This document shows, piece after piece, positions 1 to 7,403 of a stretch of DNA of 64,000 nt (position 1 is its first letter; the number at the start of each line of letters is the position of its first letter). The translations under genes and the position numbers were made by a program. Origin of the DNA: an uncultured Gammaproteobacteria bacterium (GTDB lineage: Bacteria > Pseudomonadota > Gammaproteobacteria > JAGOUU01). A model generated the notes under the pieces. That model did not search any database. It was not told the origin of the DNA and worked only from the letters and a program-made list of their open reading frames with translations. The stretch is from positions 839 to 64,838 of the forward strand of contig CAZSRF010000007.1 of the NCBI GenBank assembly GCA_964609155.1, written 5' to 3'.

Positions 1-85
1 CAACGGAAACAACCAATACTAACCATGTAATCACAACTTTTAAAGATAAAATTGCTGCTTTAAAAAATAACTTTTATGGTCATGA

Positions 86-2251
86 TTAAAAACCACTTTC
101 TCGCAACATGATGGCGACAGCTCGCCGCCAAAACCTAGACATTATACTTACTTTTTCGCCATATAGATATAACTTTCCTTTTACAGAAAAATTAGGCAAA
201 TCTTTTATTGACACGTTACTTGGCTTAGCTATAACCTGATAAACTGCATCATGTAAAATTAAATTTTCAACTTCTCTTGTACGCTTAGTTTCTGCATTTT
301 TGTTTAAAAAAGTTGTCAACTCACCACCATATAGTGATGCTAAATATTTATTATCTAAATATTTACTGCCTGCCTTATTAAATCTTATTAATTGCACCTG
401 TATTGGAGCAAATCTCATTCGTTCAAAATAAAATTGTCCGTTAATTTTTGTAATATCCACATTAAGCCTAGCCACATCATGTTCATCCATATAACCCGTT
501 ATAGATAATGTTCCAGGATCGCTGACAGTAAACAAATAATTATTTTGATCATGCCAGGTATTTACCTTCAAATATTTTGATATATCTGTAATTTGACCAT
601 CATAAGGAGCAGCTATAGTAAGTTTAGCTTTTTCAGCTAAAGCACCTGCCAACTCAGATTCTTTGTCCATCAGCTCTTGTGCAGATGCCTGCTTCTCACC
701 TAAAACACGCCCCAAACCACTTTGTTCTCGTAATTTATTTTTGATAATATTTAACTCAACGGTTGACTTATTTACTTGATAATCGATTTCATCTGAAGTA
801 AATGCTGCTAAAACAGCATCTTTTTTCACCCAATCCCCCTGTTTAATATCTAATTTTTTTAACAACCCAGGGTTAAGAGTATATATTTTTACTTCTTTTT
901 CATATGTTAAAACAGCAGGAGTTTCGATTCTATTTTGCAATGGTACAAATAAAAGAATAACTCCAAATACAAAAATTGTTATTGTGACTAATGCTCGAGT
1001 AGGTAAATGTTCTGTTTTTTTCAAAAGCGCAGCACAAGCTATTGCTTCTTTATAGGCTGGATTAAGAATAAACAAATAAACTTCTGCTATCATCAATACA
1101 ACACCAAGTATTTTGAAAAAATAAAAATACACAATAGTAGCCACAGATAGATACAAACTAATTCTATATACCCATGAGAAATAAGCATAAAATAAATACA
1201 GCCTTAAGTCAGATTTTGAACATGGAACAGGTTGAGCGCCCTTGATTCCAAACAACTGCTTTCTAAAGTACCATGTAGCCAAGTTGTAAGCTTTAGTTTG
1301 CAAATTATCAGTCGCTAAAATCTCAGAGATAATATGATACCCATCATACCGTAATAATGGATTAGCATTAATTAAAATTGTGCTTATTATTGAAACAGTT
1401 GGTATATAAATTAAAATACTACGTAACACTCCATCATCTATCAACCCCCACAAAAATAGAGCTATAATGGCTACCCCAGTTTCTGCAATAATACCAGCAC
1501 TGGCAACAACAGTTCTATGATGTCGACTTTTAAGACGCCAAGTATCTGTTGTATCTGTATAAAAAACAGGCCAAAAAACTAACAAAGCTATCCCCATAGT
1601 AGGTATTTTACAACCATAATACTTTGCTACAAACGCATGACCAAGCTCATGAAAGAATTTGGTTACAAGTACAGCGACAGATAAAATAAACATATTCTGT
1701 GGTGTAAATAAATAGTCAAACTGACCTATAAATTCACCCCATTGTCGCATTATAAGATACAATCCCATCACAAGAATAAAAAATAATACATATAAAGTTT
1801 TTTTGGTAAATAAAACTTTGACATATTTCAACATGTGCCTCAAAGCCTTATCTGGCTTAAACAACGGCACTTGCAAGAATAAATATTTTTGTAGCGCTTT
1901 TTGAATAATATGTTTTTTACTGTCAGAATGTACTTGGTATAGATAATCACCAGTATTGCTTTGATCTATCTCTAGTAATTCGTTCAATTTTAAGAACTCT
2001 AATATTTTCTCTATATTTACAGTATTTATTTTTGTGGTCGTCGTAGCATTAACTATTTTACAAATATCATCTGGATTACCAAGATACCAGTGAGATATTA
2101 TTTCAAACTCCTGCCATCCAATACGAAAAAACTTTTCTTTCAATGGATCATGAATAACCCATGTTGGAGCACCAAATTTGTCATGCCCTCCATCAATAAT
2201 ATCAAGCTCCGATCTTAAGTTTGGTAAAGATTGAATAGCTACAGTGGCCAT
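86..2251 (-). CDS. M50 (site-2 protease family) intramembrane zinc metalloprotease fused to a C-terminal HlyD-like periplasmic adaptor domain
   Basis: Both S2P catalytic motifs are intact: HELGH (nt 1637-1651) and NPLLRYDG (nt 1343-1366), inside a polytopic hydrophobic core. The C-terminal ~270 aa has HlyD-like lipoyl half-motifs (GDWVKKDAVLA, TIAAPYDGQITDI) flanking a coiled coil. The track ORF starts at TTG 2281. The ATG at 2251 lies 2 nt after the upstream stop and is the likelier start. Confidence 0.8.
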   Translation of the reverse strand: MATVAIQSLPNLRSELDIIDGGHDKFGAPTWVIHDPLKEKFFRIGWQEFEIISHWYLGNPDDICKIVNATTTTKINTVNIEKILEFLKLNELLEIDQSNTGDYLYQVHSDSKKHIIQKALQKYLFLQVPLFKPDKALRHMLKYVKVLFTKKTLYVLFFILVMGLYLIMRQWGEFIGQFDYLFTPQNMFILSVAVLVTKFFHELGHAFVAKYYGCKIPTMGIALLVFWPVFYTDTTDTWRLKSRHHRTVVASAGIIAETGVAIIALFLWGLIDDGVLRSILIYIPTVSIISTILINANPLLRYDGYHIISEILATDNLQTKAYNLATWYFRKQLFGIKGAQPVPCSKSDLRLYLFYAYFSWVYRISLYLSVATIVYFYFFKILGVVLMIAEVYLFILNPAYKEAIACAALLKKTEHLPTRALVTITIFVFGVILLFVPLQNRIETPAVLTYEKEVKIYTLNPGLLKKLDIKQGDWVKKDAVLAAFTSDEIDYQVNKSTVELNIIKNKLREQSGLGRVLGEKQASAQELMDKESELAGALAEKAKLTIAAPYDGQITDISKYLKVNTWHDQNNYLFTVSDPGTLSITGYMDEHDVARLNVDITKINGQFYFERMRFAPIQVQLIRFNKAGSKYLDNKYLASLYGGELTTFLNKNAETKRTREVENLILHDAVYQVIAKPSNVSIKDLPNFSVKGKLYLYGEKVSIMSRFWRRAVAIMLRESGF

Positions 2252-2253
2252 AA

Positions 2254-3618
2254 TTAAATTCCAATTGTTCGGCGCAACCAAGAAATCGGTTTTCTAAATA
2301 TATAATATATCAACAGTACCCTGTTGCCATATATTTTAGCTGTACCCTTTATTCCAAATCGTTCATCTTTATTGAATTCATTTGTAAAATCTGCAACACC
2401 GTAATAAGCAAGTTTATCATCAGGCTGTAAGTCTGCATGTTTACTGATAAAATTTATATTAGCTTTCATTGGAGACAATGGCTTAGGATTGGGATAAAAC
2501 ACAACTTGTGATCTATCTGGCATTTCAATAAGATCATCAATTGGAATAAAAAGATCTAATTGTTTATTACTCTCACTCGCCAAGAGCATCACACGTTCAC
2601 CAATTTCTACTGGTCGACCTAGCCAGTTTTTTGGGTCTGAAAATATTACTGTACCAGCAAATTCAGCTCTTATCACAGCTCGATCTAACAATAGCTTATT
2701 ATAATTTGCTTCTATTTCTGCAATTTTAATGTCATCACTTAACACCCTTAGGTCGTTTTTGGCTTGAGCATCATTGTAGGATTGTTGATATCCTTTCCTA
2801 TACTTTTCTCTAACGACATCAAGACCTTTCTCTGATTGATCATATTTATTCTGCAAAGTAATTGTATCTAGCTTAAATAACGGTTGTCCTGCTCTAACCA
2901 TCTGATTTGGTAGAACATAAATCTCTTTAATCATTCCTTTTATTGACGAAGCTATAACTGTAGGGTTTTTAGGAGAGATTTCCGCAGGAACCAGTACTGA
3001 ATCCCGAATGGGATAAAACAAAACTAATAAAATTATAAATATAATAGTCTTCCTAGACTCATGAACTTTTTTTAATTTTTTATAAGAAGATACTTTATTT
3101 TGATATAAACGCCATATGTTTGAATAATATGTCATTACTTTCGGTATTTTTTCAATTACTTCAGGCGTCCAGTTCTCTGATGCTAATAGTATCAAACCAC
3201 CTTTCCTGGCACCTGGAAACAACACAGACACCATATACTTATACATTTCACCATCGTAACTTGCTATTGCGTCTTTAAATTTATCGATAGAAAAAAATGT
3301 TACTTTATTAGTTTCAAAAGCCAATTTTGGTAACAAGACTTTTTCCCATAAATGAATGTATGGAGCATGATGATTAACCACGCTAATAGCAGAGACTGCA
3401 AAAATCTTATAACCGTGCAAACTTTCTTGCCAAACAATAGCTTGATCATAAGGAATAATTTTTTTAGTATGATTTACTATATGAAAAGCTAATTGGGTGA
3501 TACTTGTAGACGTGAGTGCTTTACTAATTAACCAGGTTAAAGTTTTATCGTAACTATTTTCCTTTTGTTCTTCTGCGTTTGATTGGTTAGATGGAGTAAA
3601 TTTTATTTCTGTAGCCAT
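2254..3618 (-). CDS. HlyD-family membrane-fusion (adaptor) protein with ~185-aa cytoplasmic N-terminal domain
   Basis: Single TM anchor (IIFIILLVLFYPI) followed by HlyD-type lipoyl halves (IKGMIKEIYVLPNQMVRAGQPLFKLD, VIRAEFAGTVIF) around a coiled coil. The N-terminal domain has a GAF-like pattern (inference). There are 2-nt gaps to both neighbouring genes. Confidence 0.8.
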   Translation of the reverse strand: MATEIKFTPSNQSNAEEQKENSYDKTLTWLISKALTSTSITQLAFHIVNHTKKIIPYDQAIVWQESLHGYKIFAVSAISVVNHHAPYIHLWEKVLLPKLAFETNKVTFFSIDKFKDAIASYDGEMYKYMVSVLFPGARKGGLILLASENWTPEVIEKIPKVMTYYSNIWRLYQNKVSSYKKLKKVHESRKTIIFIILLVLFYPIRDSVLVPAEISPKNPTVIASSIKGMIKEIYVLPNQMVRAGQPLFKLDTITLQNKYDQSEKGLDVVREKYRKGYQQSYNDAQAKNDLRVLSDDIKIAEIEANYNKLLLDRAVIRAEFAGTVIFSDPKNWLGRPVEIGERVMLLASESNKQLDLFIPIDDLIEMPDRSQVVFYPNPKPLSPMKANINFISKHADLQPDDKLAYYGVADFTNEFNKDERFGIKGTAKIYGNRVLLIYYIFRKPISWLRRTIGI

Positions 3619-3620
3619 GT

Positions 3621-4466
3621 TTATGGCCCTTTAAATGTAGCATTACCACTTTCCCCTACAAAAAGCCCTGTGCTCTCACTAGTTATTTTACCAATCAACT
3701 TCACTGATTGACTAACAGCATCAGCATTGTAAATAATTTTGGTGACTTTTGCTTTATATTTACTACTAGTCTCTTTTATTGAAACTTCAAAATCGTCATT
3801 AATTTTTATCCAACTTAACCATTCTGATGGTACAATTGCAGTTACGTCTAAGTTCTTATTGTCTATTATGCTAAACAATTTATCACCTGCTTTTACAGTT
3901 TCAAAGTTTCTTACCTTTAATTCCATTAGTTGACCATCAAATGGAGCTTTTTGTATACAACGTTCAGCTTTGTATTGTGCAATCTTCAGCTTAGCTAATG
4001 AACTTTCGTAATCTCCTTGGCTTGTTAGTAATTCTGTTTTACTAGCACCATCTAAATTTGCTAGATTCTTCATAGCTTGATATTTTTTTTCATTAACAAT
4101 ATTTTCTGCTTTACTTTTTTCTAAATCTGCCGTGTAAACCGTACAATCAAATTTTAATAATACGTCATTTGCTTTAAAGTAATCACCTTCTTTGACTAAA
4201 ATTTCTTTAATTGTTCCATCTATTTCTGTCGAGATGACTGCTTGATTAGTTGTGGTTAATACTGCAGGAACTGCATACTTATCTATATTTAATTCACTAC
4301 CCAATGAAGTTATATGTGAATTTGGCAAATTAGTGGAATTATTTTGATTGGCTGTACTTTTATTATGTTGATTATTAACATCATTAGAAATAAACGTATT
4401 TTGCGCTTGCAAAATACTAATCGTAGTAATCATGACTAATGTAATTTTTTTTACTTTATGCTTCAT
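3621..4466 (-). CDS. Periplasmic adaptor subunit (efflux MFP/HlyD_D23-like), signal peptide
   Basis: N-terminal signal sequence (ITLVMITTISILQA). Lipoyl halves (ISTEIDGTIKEILVKEGDYFKANDVLLKFD, IQKAPFDGQLMELKV) with a short alpha-hairpin, then a beta-barrel-like C-terminus. The start overlaps the upstream stop (ATGA, 4463-4466). Confidence 0.75.
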   Translation of the reverse strand: MKHKVKKITLVMITTISILQAQNTFISNDVNNQHNKSTANQNNSTNLPNSHITSLGSELNIDKYAVPAVLTTTNQAVISTEIDGTIKEILVKEGDYFKANDVLLKFDCTVYTADLEKSKAENIVNEKKYQAMKNLANLDGASKTELLTSQGDYESSLAKLKIAQYKAERCIQKAPFDGQLMELKVRNFETVKAGDKLFSIIDNKNLDVTAIVPSEWLSWIKINDDFEVSIKETSSKYKAKVTKIIYNADAVSQSVKLIGKITSESTGLFVGESGNATFKGP

Positions 4467-6595
4467 AGCACGGCACTAATTAAATTTTTCTCTATATTTT
4501 TAGTATTATTTATCACACGCACCTGAGTTTGCATTTTACCTCTTGCTTGTGGCTCAGAGTTTGGTATCTGCTTTGGAAGCACTGAAGCAGGAGCAGGTGG
4601 ATTAACAGGTTCTACAGGAGTTGAACTAGGTTGTTGTTGCACAGGTTCTGGTGTAACTACAGGAGTAACTGGTGTATTAGATGGCAAAGGAGGATTAACA
4701 TTTCCTTCAATCTGGGTAGTTACAGGAGCAACCGGTGCACTAGATGGCAAAGGAGGATTAACATTTCCTTCAGTCTGGGTAGTTACAGGAGCAACAGGTG
4801 TACTAGATTGCAAAGGAGGAGCGACATTTTTTCCTTCATCCGGTGTAACTACCTTTAATTTTGCCTGTGCATTCTCAGGACGTCGGCGTATTCTCGAAAC
4901 TTTGTTTTTTTTATGATTGGATTTAATCTTAGCATCATTCTTAGATTTATCTTTCATGTTAATTACAGATGTATTATCCAATTTAGCTTGTTTCAACTTA
5001 GGCGACTCTAATCGAAGACCTTGCATTGGGATATCATTAATAGATTGGGATTTAGGTTTATTTATTTTTGATTTATTAAATTTAGCATATTTGCCCTTAA
5101 TCTCATCTAATGTTATATAAAACCCTTGCTTGCTTTTAAGAGAATCTGCTATCTCTTTAGCAATTGCTTTTATTGGCTGATTTAATGTAGTTAATTTATG
5201 CACACTGTTATAACCAACAGAATCTAATAATTCATGATAAGCGGAGAGTTTATCAAAATGCGCAGTTAAAACCCTTAATTTAGCGTCAAAATAATTAATT
5301 TTAGCATTGTATACTTCTAATTGACTTGCCAGATCAGATACCGAACGTTTTTTAAGATTTTCATAGACTATCTCATTATCTTCATAAAAACCTTGAGCCA
5401 GAACACTATTTCTTTCTGCCTCTAATAATCTCACATAAGCAATATTAACTTGAGTCAAAATAGATACTGCCAAAGCCTGACGACGAATTTTGCCAAGATC
5501 TTTATTTGCATTAGCTTTTTCTAAACGAGTATATTTACTAAAAAGATCTAATAAATTACCCGTCAATTGAACTGCTGTCTGCTTCCAAAAATTATAAACT
5601 AGAAAAGATGTGCTGTCATGAAATGCGCCATAATTTAGAGTAAAATTTGGTATCATTTGAAGCCGAGCTTTATAAATCTCATCCATATCAATACGGTTTT
5701 TTAACAACTCCTCTCTTATTTCAGAACGATTATGCAAAGCTAACAATTCGATTTGCTGTATATTATACGGTAAAGAGTTTAACTGTATTTTATCATCATA
5801 AGCCGTATTTAATTCAATTTTTGAGGCTGTTGGCACATTAATCAATAACGCTAATGTTACCACCGCTCTTTCAAGATTATTTTTCATTTTATTTATTTCG
5901 GTAGATTTATCCCATAATGCTATCCGAAATTCAGCTGCTTTTTCTTTAGATATTAACTGCTCTTTTTCCTGTTTTTTAGACTTTTCTATAGCTTGATCAA
6001 TTTCTTTGCTAAGTAGATTAATTTGTGGAATAATATTATTAGTAACGTGACTAGCCCAATATGCGGTACGTGTATCTCGAACAATCTCTTGTAATAGGGT
6101 TTTCTTTTTTTCTTCAAGCATTAAATATTCATTGGCTTTTTGTTTTGAGTTATAGTAGCTAATCCCAAAATCAAGAATACTCCATGACAATTGTAAATCT
6201 AATGTATTCGTATATTTATTACGCGACAAAGATACTTGATTTGTATTAGGCGATAAAACTTTACCTGGTCGATCACGGGCTGTGTAATTAAAATTTGCAA
6301 CAAGATCTGGAAGCATTTCATAGGTAACAGCACGATGCTCTATCAAACCTACTGCAGCTTCTTGAATTTTTTGTTTGTAACTTAAATTATATTTAATAGC
6401 TCTTGCAATTGCTTCTGAAAGGGTCAATGGCTTGATTAATGGTTCAGTAGTACGATAACGCTCAGAACGATCTAGATATAATGCTTTTTTAATCTCATCT
6501 TTAGTTAATGGTTCAGGATTAACTGAGCAACCATTAATAACCAAAATTAACAATAAAAAAGGTAAAAAAACTAACTTAGTATAATTGCTCTTCAT
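4463..6595 (-). CDS. TolC/NodT-family outer-membrane efflux lipoprotein with ~230-aa Lys- and Pro-rich C-terminal extension
   Basis: Lipobox (LVINGC). The first ~480 aa have the duplicated alpha-helical/beta pattern of outer-membrane efflux proteins (LTLSEAIARAIKYNLSYK, LNIAYVRLLEAERN). The C-terminal tail is KxK-rich, followed by PVAPVTTQxEGNVNPPLP repeats. Confidence 0.8.
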   Translation of the reverse strand: MKSNYTKLVFLPFLLLILVINGCSVNPEPLTKDEIKKALYLDRSERYRTTEPLIKPLTLSEAIARAIKYNLSYKQKIQEAAVGLIEHRAVTYEMLPDLVANFNYTARDRPGKVLSPNTNQVSLSRNKYTNTLDLQLSWSILDFGISYYNSKQKANEYLMLEEKKKTLLQEIVRDTRTAYWASHVTNNIIPQINLLSKEIDQAIEKSKKQEKEQLISKEKAAEFRIALWDKSTEINKMKNNLERAVVTLALLINVPTASKIELNTAYDDKIQLNSLPYNIQQIELLALHNRSEIREELLKNRIDMDEIYKARLQMIPNFTLNYGAFHDSTSFLVYNFWKQTAVQLTGNLLDLFSKYTRLEKANANKDLGKIRRQALAVSILTQVNIAYVRLLEAERNSVLAQGFYEDNEIVYENLKKRSVSDLASQLEVYNAKINYFDAKLRVLTAHFDKLSAYHELLDSVGYNSVHKLTTLNQPIKAIAKEIADSLKSKQGFYITLDEIKGKYAKFNKSKINKPKSQSINDIPMQGLRLESPKLKQAKLDNTSVINMKDKSKNDAKIKSNHKKNKVSRIRRRPENAQAKLKVVTPDEGKNVAPPLQSSTPVAPVTTQTEGNVNPPLPSSAPVAPVTTQIEGNVNPPLPSNTPVTPVVTPEPVQQQPSSTPVEPVNPPAPASVLPKQIPNSEPQARGKMQTQVRVINNTKNIEKNLISAVL
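4647..4852. repeat. In-frame 63-bp tandem repeat (about 3 copies), encoding 21-aa Pro-rich units
   Basis: Units at 4678-4740 and 4741-4803 are near-identical (tagatggcaaaggaggattaacatttccttca...). Degenerate partial copies flank them on both sides. Confidence 0.9.
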
Positions 6596-6836
6596 ATTCT
6601 TCTTATTTGCTTTGCTTATTTAATATAAAAATTATACGTCTATGTATACATTATAGATGGTATTTTTTTATCTTAAAGTTTATAGTTACAAACAATTACA
6701 AAACATGAAATAAACACTTAAAATTTAAAATAATAAAACTAACTCTAACGAATGTTATACCAAAAGATTATTAGAATCTTTTAGTATTACTTATTATAAT
6801 AATAATCAACAACCACTACACCCTATATACAGCCTA

Positions 6837-7403
6837 ATGACTAATTTAAGCAATGCATTTCTATTCTTAACTAACTTTTTATTTGACTTTTATATTTCTC
6901 TTGTGCTGTTACGTTTTATACTTCAGTTAGTTCGAGCTCCTTTTAATAACGATATTGGCCAGTTTATTATTAAATTAACCAACCCGGGTGTATTATTATT
7001 TCGAAAATTTGTACCGGGTATCCGGGGTATTGATTTCGCGACCGTTGCGCTAGCATATCTTTTAGCTATTTTGAAAATGCTAATGGTCGTTGTTTTCTCT
7101 ACCCGAGGTTTCTTACCTGTTTATGCAAATTTTCCTGCCTATTTATTATTAGCATTCATATGCCTAATTGAGTTGACTTTAACAATTTATTTTTGGGGTA
7201 TCATCTTACGAGTTATACTAAGCTTTATGGTTAGTAGCTCACCATCTGTTTATAATAACCCTTTTTATACTATGGTTTACTTACTAACAGAGCCAGTATT
7301 AAGTTTTATCAGAAAATTTGTACCATTAATTGGCGGATTTGATCTATCACCAATGATTGCTTTACTAATGATAGCGGTATTAAGAATAGTCTTTAATGTT
7401 TAA
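6837..7403 (+). CDS. yggT: YggT-family integral membrane protein
   Basis: 188 aa. Two YGGT-type hydrophobic repeats (LRFILQLVRAPFNN, LRVILSFMVSS). Lies near rdgB, as in enterobacterial yggS-yggT-yggU-rdgB loci. Confidence 0.8.
   Translation: MTNLSNAFLFLTNFLFDFYISLVLLRFILQLVRAPFNNDIGQFIIKLTNPGVLLFRKFVPGIRGIDFATVALAYLLAILKMLMVVVFSTRGFLPVYANFPAYLLLAFICLIELTLTIYFWGIILRVILSFMVSSSPSVYNNPFYTMVYLLTEPVLSFIRKFVPLIGGFDLSPMIALLMIAVLRIVFNV

What the first reader, a model, noticed from the sequence alone, without database searches (positions are those of the whole stretch)
4466..5155. TolC-family protein with a ~230-aa basic and Pro-rich C-terminal extension built from 63-bp repeats
The OM-factor fold appears complete by about residue 480. 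It is followed by a Lys-rich segment (KFNKSKINKPKSQS...KSNHKKNKVSRIRRRP). After that come near-identical 21-aa units (EGNVNPPLPSSAPVAPVTTQ) encoded by 63-bp tandem repeats at 4647-4852. Pro-rich rigid spacers are used by TonB to span the periplasm. Here such a spacer could tether the channel to peptidoglycan or to the inner-membrane partners. The high identity between the DNA repeats suggests recent expansion and possible copy-number variation between strains.
Basis: partly seen in the sequence, partly recalled or inferred. Interest (0 to 1): 0.5.

Follow-up and report, generated by a model that had tools for sequence, protein, structure and literature searches.

The report
TolC-type channel with orphan disordered tail
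A real outer-membrane exit-duct protein carries a roughly 200-residue floppy, lysine-rich then proline-rich tail found only in its own narrow lineage; related ducts often carry cell-wall-binding modules at the same position, so it is an interesting but not revolutionary variant.

Summary
Window 4463-6595 (-) encodes a 710-aa lipoprotein-type TolC/OMF. Its fold ends at about residue 510, not 480. About 200 residues predicted to be disordered follow:
- a Lys-rich segment (504-575, net charge +15);
- a Pro-rich segment (576-684, 24% Pro) holding three 63/66-bp units (4646-4837);
- a 26-aa terminal motif.

The units are 76-89% identical, not near-identical.

The tail is not an artefact. It is in frame in three independent assemblies. 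dN/dS is 0.30 for the tail against 0.03 for the core. The terminal motif is the best conserved part.

A second strain (95% identical) also has three units. So no copy-number variation was seen, but the array is mosaic from gene conversion and carries a one-codon indel. The 71% orthologue has the tail without repeats.

A profile search of 1.84 billion proteins found this tail only in its own cluster.

The gene heads a widely conserved operon: OMF, adaptor, adaptor, M50-protease/adaptor fusion. In this OMF subfamily the C-terminus is a hot spot. 69 of 119 relatives have extensions, 20 of them ending in a peptidoglycan-binding SPOR domain. This protein has no recognisable binding domain.

Best reading: a periplasmic flexible tether. 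That function is inferred, not shown.

The parts
4463..6595 (-). Complete gene for the 710-aa OMF/TolC-family lipoprotein. The stop TGA (4463-4465) overlaps the ATG of the next gene (ATGA).
   Evidence: ORF list; Pfam OEP x2; sequence at 4460-4470.
6527..6595 (-). Signal peptide with lipobox ending in Cys23 (..LVINGC).
   Evidence: Translation. Cys23 is conserved in at least 90% of 101 family members.
5066..6526 (-). OMF fold proper (residues 24-510): beta-barrel strands, long alpha-barrel helices and equatorial-domain helices 475-487 and 496-510.
   Evidence: AF2 pLDDT is mostly above 85 up to residue 500 and 81 for 501-510. Foldseek matches TolC/OprM/CusC. The shortest family members end about 25-45 aa after invariant G461.
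4871..5086 (-). Lys-rich basic segment (residues 504-575, net charge +15). It holds small islands conserved with the 71% orthologue (IPMQ..L.SPK, SR.RRRPE).
   Evidence: Composition; alignment; pLDDT below 50 from residue 521; dN/dS 0.26-0.39.
4544..4870 (-). Pro-rich spacer (residues 576-684, 24% Pro, 45% GC in a 31% GC gene).
   Evidence: pLDDT about 40; dN/dS 0.33-0.41.
4646..4837 (-). Three tandem units of 66, 63 and 63 bp (22, 21 and 21 aa: EGKNVAPPLQSSTPVAPVTTQT / EGNVNPPLPSSAPVAPVTTQI / EGNVNPPLPSNTPVTPVVTPE).
   Evidence: TRF; unit alignment and identity matrix including the second strain; shuffle control.
4466..4543 (-). Conserved terminal motif RGKMQTQVRVINNTKNIEKNLISAVL (residues 685-710). 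A short strand-prone stretch is followed by a predicted helix at 698-709.
   Evidence: Identical in strain L119. 17 of 25 aligned residues are identical in the 71% orthologue despite saturated synonymous sites (dN/dS 0.13). pLDDT rises to 54-69.
3621..4466 (-). Downstream gene 2: 281-aa periplasmic adaptor (HlyD/RND_mfp type).
   Evidence: Pfam and NCBIfam.
2254..3618 (-). Downstream gene 3: 454-aa adaptor-like protein with an unassigned N-terminal half.
86..2281 (-). Downstream gene 4: 731-aa fusion of an M50 HExxH intramembrane protease with an adaptor domain.
   Evidence: Pfam Peptidase_M50 plus HlyD_3. NCBIfam daptide_HExxH scores 1e-43 (below cutoff) and YydH/LiaK 4.5e-15.

Best explanation
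The finding is a genuine, lineage-specific, intrinsically disordered C-terminal extension of a dedicated outer-membrane factor (OMF).

The OMF is the first gene of a conserved four-gene envelope-spanning system: OMF, adaptor, adaptor-like protein, and an M50-protease/adaptor fusion.

In TolC-type proteins the C-terminus leaves the fold at the equatorial domain, on the periplasmic side, at about the height of the peptidoglycan layer. In this OMF subfamily that end is a hot spot where accessory modules have been appended repeatedly, usually behind a low-complexity linker.

Proposed mechanism, which is inferred:
1. The tail lies in the periplasm.
2. The +15 Lys-rich part sits next to the anionic cell wall or membrane surface.
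3. The 109-residue Pro-rich part, lengthened by triplication of a 21/22-aa unit, acts as an extended spacer. Its contour length as a PPII helix is up to about 34 nm.
4. The spacer presents the conserved 26-residue terminal motif to a partner. The most plausible partners are the system's own adaptor or inner-membrane components, or the cell wall.
5. This helps to position or recruit the duct.

Shown here: the anatomy, the reality of the tail, purifying selection, lineage restriction, the family hot spot and the operon. Inferred: the location, the binding partners and the tether function.
For: - OMF identity and where the fold ends.
- Conserved four-gene operon, present in 46 of 119 loci and in 15 of the 23 loci with at least 6.5 kb of downstream sequence.
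- The tail is in frame in three assemblies.
- dN/dS against the 95% strain is 0.031 for the core and 0.30 for the tail. Against the 71% orthologue it is 0.045 for the core, 0.34 for the tail and 0.13 for the terminal motif.
- Pro-rich DNA is 45% GC against 31% for the gene. The composition runs against the genome's AT bias.
- Family hot spot: 69 of 119 relatives, and 53 of 110 complete loci, extend at least 40 aa beyond the core. SPOR occurs in 20 of the 69. An OmpA domain, SH3b domains, Cds6_C and Ig/cadherin modules occur in others.
- SPOR-tailed and W-motif-tailed relatives sit in the same operon.
- Literature: the equatorial domain is proposed to contact peptidoglycan, and the peptidoglycan layer lies between AcrA and TolC (PMC13082787, citing Shi 2019). 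The OprM C-terminal tail affects partner interaction (PMC4790312, PMC8277102).
Against: - No peptidoglycan-binding or other domain is detectable in this tail (Pfam at E<=10, family SPOR HMM, hhalign, PDB sequences).
- No partner has been identified.
- The tail evolves about ten times faster than the core.
- The 55% relative P0003 has a Lys-rich tail with no Pro-rich part or obvious terminal motif.
- Many family members work without any tail.
- The predicted terminal helix is not significantly amphipathic.
- Only three sequences carry this tail, so the conservation statistics are thin.
- Periplasmic location is inferred from homologous structures and was not tested.
Confidence: 0.5

Rival explanations
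1. The tail is a largely neutral low-complexity appendage. A tolerated disordered tail drifts and expands by replication slippage, with no specific function beyond perhaps the short terminal stretch, which overlaps the translational coupling region of the next gene.
For: - The tail is lineage-restricted. It was found only in its own 50% cluster among 1.84 billion representatives.
- dN/dS is ten times that of the core.
- There are indels between close strains.
- P0003 lacks the Pro-rich part.
- About half of the family has no tail.
- The last 26 codons show zero changes between strains, synonymous changes included. This could reflect DNA-level constraint or recombination rather than protein function.
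Against: - dN/dS of 0.30-0.34 is still clearly below 1.
- Against the 71% orthologue the terminal motif has 10 synonymous and 11 non-synonymous differences, with dN/dS 0.13. That is protein-level constraint.
- Pro richness runs against the AT mutational bias.
- The reading frame is kept open over about 620 nt in three genomes.
Confidence: 0.25
2. The tail is a surface-exposed extension like Burkholderia Bucl8. It would reach the cell surface and act as an adhesin or variable antigen.
For: - Bucl8 is an OMF followed by a repetitive low-complexity region with strain-variable repeat number and an unstructured tail. It is modelled as extracellular and binds fibrinogen (PMC7682875).
- The repeat array here shows intra-array gene conversion.
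- Some relatives carry Ig or cadherin-like modules at the same position.
- The system is next to a giant adhesin-like gene.
Against: - Solved OMF structures place the C-terminus in the periplasm at the equatorial domain.
- Relatives carry periplasmic cell-wall-binding modules (SPOR, OmpA) at this same position.
- There are no collagen GXY repeats.
- Copy number is the same in the two strains.
- The extracellular location of the Bucl8 tail is itself a model.
Confidence: 0.08
3. The terminal motif is a degenerate remnant of a lost cell-wall-binding module. It would be the first strand and helix of a SPOR domain, or a diverged copy of the 'YRVVNTDMWDNLQSL' C-terminal motif seen in Brenneria, Pectobacterium and Dickeya relatives.
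For: - By eye, QVRVINNTKNIEKNLISAVL resembles FVQVGYFAERANVEKLKNVL at the start of the SPOR domain of P0028.
- The overall architecture of linker plus terminal element matches that of relatives.
Against: - The family SPOR HMM gives E 0.17-0.5 with a different register.
- The W-motif HMM gives no hit to this tail.
- hhalign probability is below 1% for both.
- Pfam SPOR is not detected even at E<=10.
Confidence: 0.07
4. The tail is an assembly or sequencing artefact, or a frameshifted fusion with a separate downstream gene.
For: - Repeats and an A8 homopolymer (4905-4912) lie inside the tail. Both are classic error sites.
Against: - The same frame and the same three units appear in an independent assembly from SRR14234075.
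- The tail, with the same ATGA overlap to the adaptor gene, is present in the 71% orthologue.
- dN/dS is below 1.
- No separate gene occupies this position in any relative.
Confidence: 0.01

Closest known systems
Bucl8 of Burkholderia pseudomallei/mallei (an OMF with a collagen-like (GAS)n region and an unstructured C-terminal tail; PMC7682875, PMC8277102)
   Same: Both have a canonical two-OEP lipoprotein-type OMF followed by a repetitive low-complexity region and a disordered C-terminus. Both head an operon with more than three components.
   Different: Bucl8 has Gly-Ala-Ser collagen triplets that form a triple helix, 6-38 repeats across strains, a fusaric-acid pump context and a proposed extracellular location. 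Here the units are 21/22-aa Pro-rich units (three in both strains), preceded by a +15 Lys-rich segment. The context is an M50/adaptor operon and the location is probably periplasmic. No sequence similarity was found.
SPOR-, OmpA- and SH3b-tailed relatives (e.g. P0028, P0067, L108; L038 is distant)
   Same: For the SPOR-tailed members checked, the OMF subfamily and the four-gene operon are the same. The extension starts at the same point after the equatorial helices and begins with a low-complexity linker.
   Different: Those tails end in recognised cell-wall-binding domains. This one ends in a 26-aa orphan motif. The operon context of L108 is unknown, and L038 (22% identity) lacks the partner genes within the sequence held.
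TonB (Pro-rich periplasm-spanning spacer)
   Same: Both have a long Pro-rich, probably extended spacer between a membrane-anchored part and a terminal interaction element. Polarity is reversed here: the anchor is in the outer membrane.
   Different: There is no TonB_C domain, no (Glu-Pro)/(Lys-Pro) repeats and no ExbBD coupling. This is an analogy of design, not homology.
C-terminal tails of OprM and TolC
   Same: Both have a short flexible C-terminal tail that emerges at the equatorial domain. For OprM the tail influences interaction with the adaptor and pump (PMC4790312, PMC8277102).
   Different: For OprM the tested tail is about 20 residues. This tail is about 200 residues, with distinct compositional zones and tandem repeats.

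Membership tests
Outer membrane factor (TolC/OprM family, Pfam OEP PF02321) | Two tandem OEP repeats | tested here: met
   Pfam OEP scores 6e-27 in 2 stretches; the best stretch is residues 284-459.
Outer membrane factor (TolC/OprM family, Pfam OEP PF02321) | TolC-like fold (beta-barrel, long alpha-barrel and equatorial domain) | tested here: met
   AF2 gives pLDDT >=90 for 392 residues. Foldseek matches TolC, TOprJ1, OprM and CusC at E 1e-14 to 1e-17, with target-normalised TM-score 0.66-0.81.
Outer membrane factor (TolC/OprM family, Pfam OEP PF02321) | N-terminal lipoprotein signal with a lipobox Cys (NodT/OprM-type subclass) | tested here: met
   The N-terminus is MKSNYTKLVFLPFLLLILVINGC. 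Cys23 is conserved in at least 90% of 101 relatives. Lipidation itself is not testable here.
Outer membrane factor (TolC/OprM family, Pfam OEP PF02321) | Genetic linkage to periplasmic adaptor proteins and an inner-membrane component | tested here: met
   Two adaptor genes and an M50/adaptor fusion lie directly downstream, and the order is conserved. The inner-membrane component is not a classical ABC, RND or MFS transporter.
Outer membrane factor (TolC/OprM family, Pfam OEP PF02321) | Homotrimeric channel | not testable with these tools
   Only monomer prediction was available.
SPOR-domain peptidoglycan-binding proteins | SPOR domain (PF05036, beta-alpha-beta-beta-alpha-beta) | tested here: not met
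   There is no Pfam hit on the tail at E<=10. The family SPOR HMM gives E 0.17. hhalign probability is 0.4%.
TonB family | C-terminal TonB_C domain | tested here: not met
   No TonB_C was reported in the Pfam scans of the protein or the tail.
TonB family | N-terminal inner-membrane anchor | tested here: not met
   The N-terminus is a lipoprotein signal peptide, followed by an OMF fold.
TonB family | Pro-rich periplasmic spacer | tested here: met
   Residues 576-684 are 24% Pro and predicted non-globular. This feature alone does not define the family.
Bucl8-type collagen-like OMF | Gly-X-Y collagen-like repeats after the OMF domains | tested here: not met
   The units are 21/22 aa with no GXY periodicity.
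Bucl8-type collagen-like OMF | Repeat number varies between strains | tested here: inconclusive
   Only two strains are available and both have three units. A one-codon indel and conversion mosaics are present.
Tails ending in the 'YRVVNTDMWDNLQSL' C-terminal motif (Brenneria/Pectobacterium/Dickeya-type relatives) | Terminal motif [YL]R.V....W..L.S[LV] | tested here: not met
   An HMM built from 27 non-redundant motifs finds nothing in this tail. hhalign probability is 0.2%.

The most novel reading that the evidence does not exclude
The tail is a 'reverse TonB'. It would be an outer-membrane-anchored tether that spans the periplasm. Its conserved terminal motif would dock onto the inner-membrane M50-protease/adaptor complex, and its Lys-rich part would engage peptidoglycan, possibly covalently through Lys-mDAP links as described for other envelope proteins (that comparison is from memory). 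This would couple duct recruitment to a so far uncharacterised four-component system that appears to be dedicated to giant adhesin-like proteins.
Probability: 0.15. Interest if true: 0.65.

Novelty: new variant of a known kind. Interest (0 to 1): 0.35.

Why it matters
OMFs are usually treated as compact, interchangeable exit ducts. This case, and the family survey behind it, show that one widespread OMF subfamily uses its C-terminus as a docking site for accessory modules. These include SPOR, OmpA, SH3b, NTF2-like and Ig-like domains, and conserved terminal peptides on flexible linkers.

If the tail here acts as a tether, it would be a simple natural example of how an outer-membrane duct is positioned relative to the cell wall or to its inner-membrane partners. 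It would also give a handle on an uncharacterised M50-protease/adaptor system that sits next to giant adhesin-like genes.

If the tail is only tolerated low-complexity sequence, the finding is ordinary.

Tried and rejected
1. SPOR remnant hypothesis for the terminal motif. Pfam at E<=10, a family SPOR HMM and hhalign were all negative.
2. Homology of the terminal motif with the W-containing C-terminal motif of Brenneria-type relatives. The HMM and hhalign were negative.
3. Word-index protein search with the tail alone. It returned nothing, not even the protein itself, so it is uninformative. It was replaced by an exhaustive profile search, which found only the tail's own cluster.
4. Metagenome scan with tail-proximal peptides found no relatives. 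A scan with core peptides found 80 loci, all at 33% identity or less. These served only for family statistics.
5. The genome-collection scan does not contain the source genome. The closest entry is the 71% MAG.
6. PDB sequence search with the tail gave no hits.
7. An AF2 model of a Brenneria-type relative (P0015) was made to see whether its terminal motif docks on the core. Tail pLDDT was 47-64 in 10-residue blocks, so the result is inconclusive.
8. Other OMF paralogues or copies of the tail in the 64-kb window: none by tblastn.
9. Rfam on the window gave no matches.
10. Amphipathic-helix test of residues 697-710 was not significant; 23% of shuffles scored as high.
11. Literature searches for TolC with SPOR, for Pro-rich OMF tails and for M50/HlyD/TolC clusters found no description of this architecture. 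Only Bucl8 and the OprM-tail work came up as analogues.
Full report
WHAT IS THERE

Window 4463-6595 (- strand) is a single 710-aa ORF. The N-terminus is a lipoprotein signal ending in Cys23, a residue conserved in at least 90% of 101 relatives. Pfam finds two OEP repeats at 6e-27.

An AlphaFold2 model built on a 101-sequence family alignment is confident (392 residues at pLDDT >=90) up to two short helices at 475-487 and 496-510. Confidence then collapses to below 50 for 521-693. It recovers partly (54-69) for a terminal helix at 698-709. Foldseek matches the model to TolC, TOprJ1, OprM, CusC, CmeC and MtrE at E 1e-13 to 1e-17.

The shortest members of the family end 25-45 residues after the invariant Gly461. 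The extension therefore starts at about residue 504-511 and is about 200 aa long.

ANATOMY OF THE TAIL

- Residues 504-575 (window 4871-5086) are Lys-rich, with 21 K+R against 6 D+E and a net charge of +15.
- Residues 576-684 (4544-4870) are 24% Pro. Their DNA is 45% GC in a gene that is otherwise 31% GC.
- Within the Pro-rich part there are three tandem units: 4772-4837 (22 aa), 4709-4771 (21 aa) and 4646-4708 (21 aa).
- Residues 685-710 (4466-4543) are RGKMQTQVRVINNTKNIEKNLISAVL.
- The stop codon overlaps the start codon of the next gene (ATGA).

TRF reports period 63, 2.6 copies and score 277. The best ungapped self-match at offset 63 is 105/126, against 53 +/- 2 in shuffles. The units are 56/63, 51/63 and 48/63 identical at the DNA level and 12-15 of 21 at the protein level. 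They are similar, not near-identical.

IS IT REAL?

Yes. The 90% protein cluster has a second member, P0241 (715 aa). It comes from an independent Logan assembly of SRR14234075 (L119) and sits in the same gene neighbourhood. It is 95% identical and has the same three zones and the same three units. It also has a 4-aa insertion in the Lys-rich part and a one-codon difference in unit 2.

The 71% orthologue (P0002, locus L001/L003; a MAG labelled Gammaproteobacteria Gw_Eff_bin_521) has the Lys-rich part, the RRRPE island, a Pro-rich part and the same terminal motif. It has no tandem repeat. The 55% relative P0003 has a Lys-rich tail only.

Nei-Gojobori estimates against L119 give dN/dS of 0.031 for the core (dS 0.34) and 0.30 for the tail (dS 0.16). 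The last 26 codons show no change. Against L001, dN/dS is 0.045 for the core, 0.39 for the Lys-rich part, 0.41 for the Pro-rich part and 0.13 for the terminal motif. Synonymous sites are saturated in that comparison.

The tail is therefore translated and under purifying selection. That selection is relaxed relative to the core, as is typical of disordered linkers, and the terminal motif is the most constrained part. A frameshift or fusion artefact is excluded.

REPEAT DYNAMICS

Both strains have three units, so the single comparison available shows no copy-number variation. The array predates the strain split and post-dates the split from L001.

The array is mosaic:
- The 5' half of our unit 1 matches the other strain's unit 1 (32/33), but its 3' half matches that strain's unit 2 (31/33 against 21/33).
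- The 5' half of our unit 2 is identical to that of our unit 3 (30/30).

This is the signature of intra-array gene conversion since the strains diverged.

HOW WIDESPREAD IS THE TAIL?

A profile of the two tails was searched with HMMER against 1.84 billion cluster representatives. It found only the tail's own cluster. Pfam, PDB sequences and family-specific HMMs find nothing in it. It is an orphan, lineage-restricted sequence.

The organism is an uncultured, 34% GC gammaproteobacterium. The best named GyrA relatives (Sedimenticola, Thiodiazotropha, Legionella) are 66-68% identical.

CONTEXT

The OMF is followed, with overlapping or abutting genes, by:
- a 281-aa adaptor (HlyD/RND_mfp type);
- a 454-aa adaptor-like protein;
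- a 731-aa fusion of an HExxH M50 intramembrane protease with an adaptor domain. Its protease half resembles the daptide and YydH/LiaK RiPP-maturation proteases, but scores below their family cutoffs.

This four-gene order recurs across Proteobacteria. It is present in 46 of 119 loci, and in 15 of the 23 loci with enough downstream sequence.

THE FAMILY-LEVEL RESULT THAT BEARS ON FUNCTION

In this OMF subfamily the C-terminus is a hot spot. 69 of 119 database relatives, and 53 of 110 complete loci, extend at least 40 aa beyond the core. 28 and 33 of them, respectively, extend at least 100 aa.

Of the 69 extended database relatives:
- 20 end in a SPOR domain (peptidoglycan binding), behind an Ala/Pro-rich linker in the members inspected;
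- 2 carry a Cds6_C NTF2-like domain;
- about 30 end in a conserved '[YL]R.V....W..L.S' peptide behind such a linker.

Among metagenomic and genome loci, tails carry an OmpA domain (L108), two SH3b domains (the distant L038), He_PIG/Big_9/cadherin Ig-like domains (L111, L026) and HEAT repeats (L032). SPOR-tailed and W-motif-tailed members sit in the same four-gene operon.

Linker composition appears to follow genome composition. In the sequences inspected, the Azospirillum, Rhodospirillales and Brenneria-type tails are Ala/Pro-rich, whereas this AT-rich lineage has Lys/Asn/Ser-rich sequence. That makes the GC-rich Pro segment here stand out as selected rather than drift.

MECHANISM

Established structures place the OMF C-terminus at the equatorial domain on the periplasmic side. 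The literature places the peptidoglycan layer at about that height, between TolC and AcrA (PMC13082787, citing Shi et al. 2019). The OprM C-terminal tail influences interaction with its partners (PMC4790312, PMC8277102).

The most likely reading is that the tail is periplasmic. The basic segment would lie against the anionic wall or membrane surface. The Pro-rich segment would act as an extended spacer, with a contour length of up to about 34 nm as a PPII helix. The conserved terminal motif would be the business end, docking on a partner that is still unidentified.

I put this at about 0.5. Only the anatomy, the selection and the family pattern are shown. The location and the binding are inferred.

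Rivals:
- A largely neutral low-complexity appendage (0.25).
- A Bucl8-like surface-exposed extension (0.08).
- A degenerate remnant of a SPOR or W-motif module (0.07; tested and negative).
- An artefact (0.01).

COMPARISON WITH WHAT IS KNOWN

Membership in the OMF family is met on every testable criterion. The tail is not a member of the SPOR, TonB or Bucl8 collagen-like families, because their defining domains or repeats were tested and are absent.

The tail works most like a TonB-style Pro-rich spacer with reversed polarity. Architecturally it most resembles Bucl8, an OMF followed by a repetitive low-complexity region and a disordered end (PMC7682875).

I found no paper that describes SPOR-, OmpA- or peptide-tailed OMFs, or this M50/adaptor operon. 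The library searched is incomplete.

VERDICT

This is a new variant of a known kind, an OMF with a C-terminal extension. Interest is moderate at 0.35, raised mainly by the family-wide hot spot and the uncharacterised system it belongs to.

Noticed in passing
window 3-86 (+), stop at 87-89; L119:14522-15430 (-); L001:6152-7192 (-); L120:1-6982; L121:1-6934; L122:1-6765: In all six neighbourhoods inspected, a giant or truncated Ig/cadherin-repeat protein gene lies next to the four-gene operon. The window edge encodes its last 28 aa (..ITTFKDKIAALKNNFYGHD*), the same C-terminus as in L119 and nearly the same as in L001, and both of those assemblies break inside this gene. In SPOR-tailed and Brenneria-type relatives, proteins of at least 2898 to 5152 aa (genes cut at the locus ends; DUF4347 plus cadherin or Big_6/Big_13 domains, or He_PIG) lie directly upstream. 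This suggests the system serves a giant adhesin-like substrate.
   Followed up: partly
window 86-2281 (-), 2254-3618 (-), 3621-4466 (-): The inner-membrane component is not an ABC, RND or MFS transporter. It is an HExxH M50 protease fused to an adaptor domain, and it resembles the daptide and YydH/LiaK RiPP proteases below their family cutoffs. Two further adaptor-like proteins accompany it. The operon is conserved across Proteobacteria, and I found no description of it in the literature searched.
   Followed up: partly
relatives P0010-P0092 (e.g. P0015 of Brenneria, residues about 550-570): A second class of OMF tails consists of an Ala/Pro/Thr-rich linker ending in a conserved peptide, KPYRVVNTDMWDNLQSLQAGG (general form [YL]R.V....W..L.S[LV]). 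It occurs in about 30 relatives (27 distinct motif sequences), including Brenneria, Pectobacterium, Dickeya, Symbiopectobacterium and Erwinia. Its function is unknown, and the AF2 model is uninformative there (pLDDT 47-64).
   Followed up: partly
window 4466-5086 compared with L119:9510-10148: Synonymous divergence between the two strains is about half as high in the tail (dS 0.16) as in the core (dS 0.34). It is zero in the last 26 codons. Possible causes are recombination, constraint from translational coupling to the next gene, or small-sample noise.
   Followed up: no
window 4905-4912: An A8 homopolymer (on the coding strand) lies inside the Lys-rich segment, at the codons for HKKNK. It is present and in frame in both strains. 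It is a potential slippage site, but there is no evidence of phase variation.
   Followed up: partly
window 6596-6836: The intergenic region upstream of the operon is very AT-rich (21-23% GC) and separates it from the divergent yggT gene (6837-7403). It holds only a weak sigma-70-like match at 6758-6730 (-), and promoter-like matches in the scanned region 4300-6900 were no more frequent than in shuffles.
   Followed up: no
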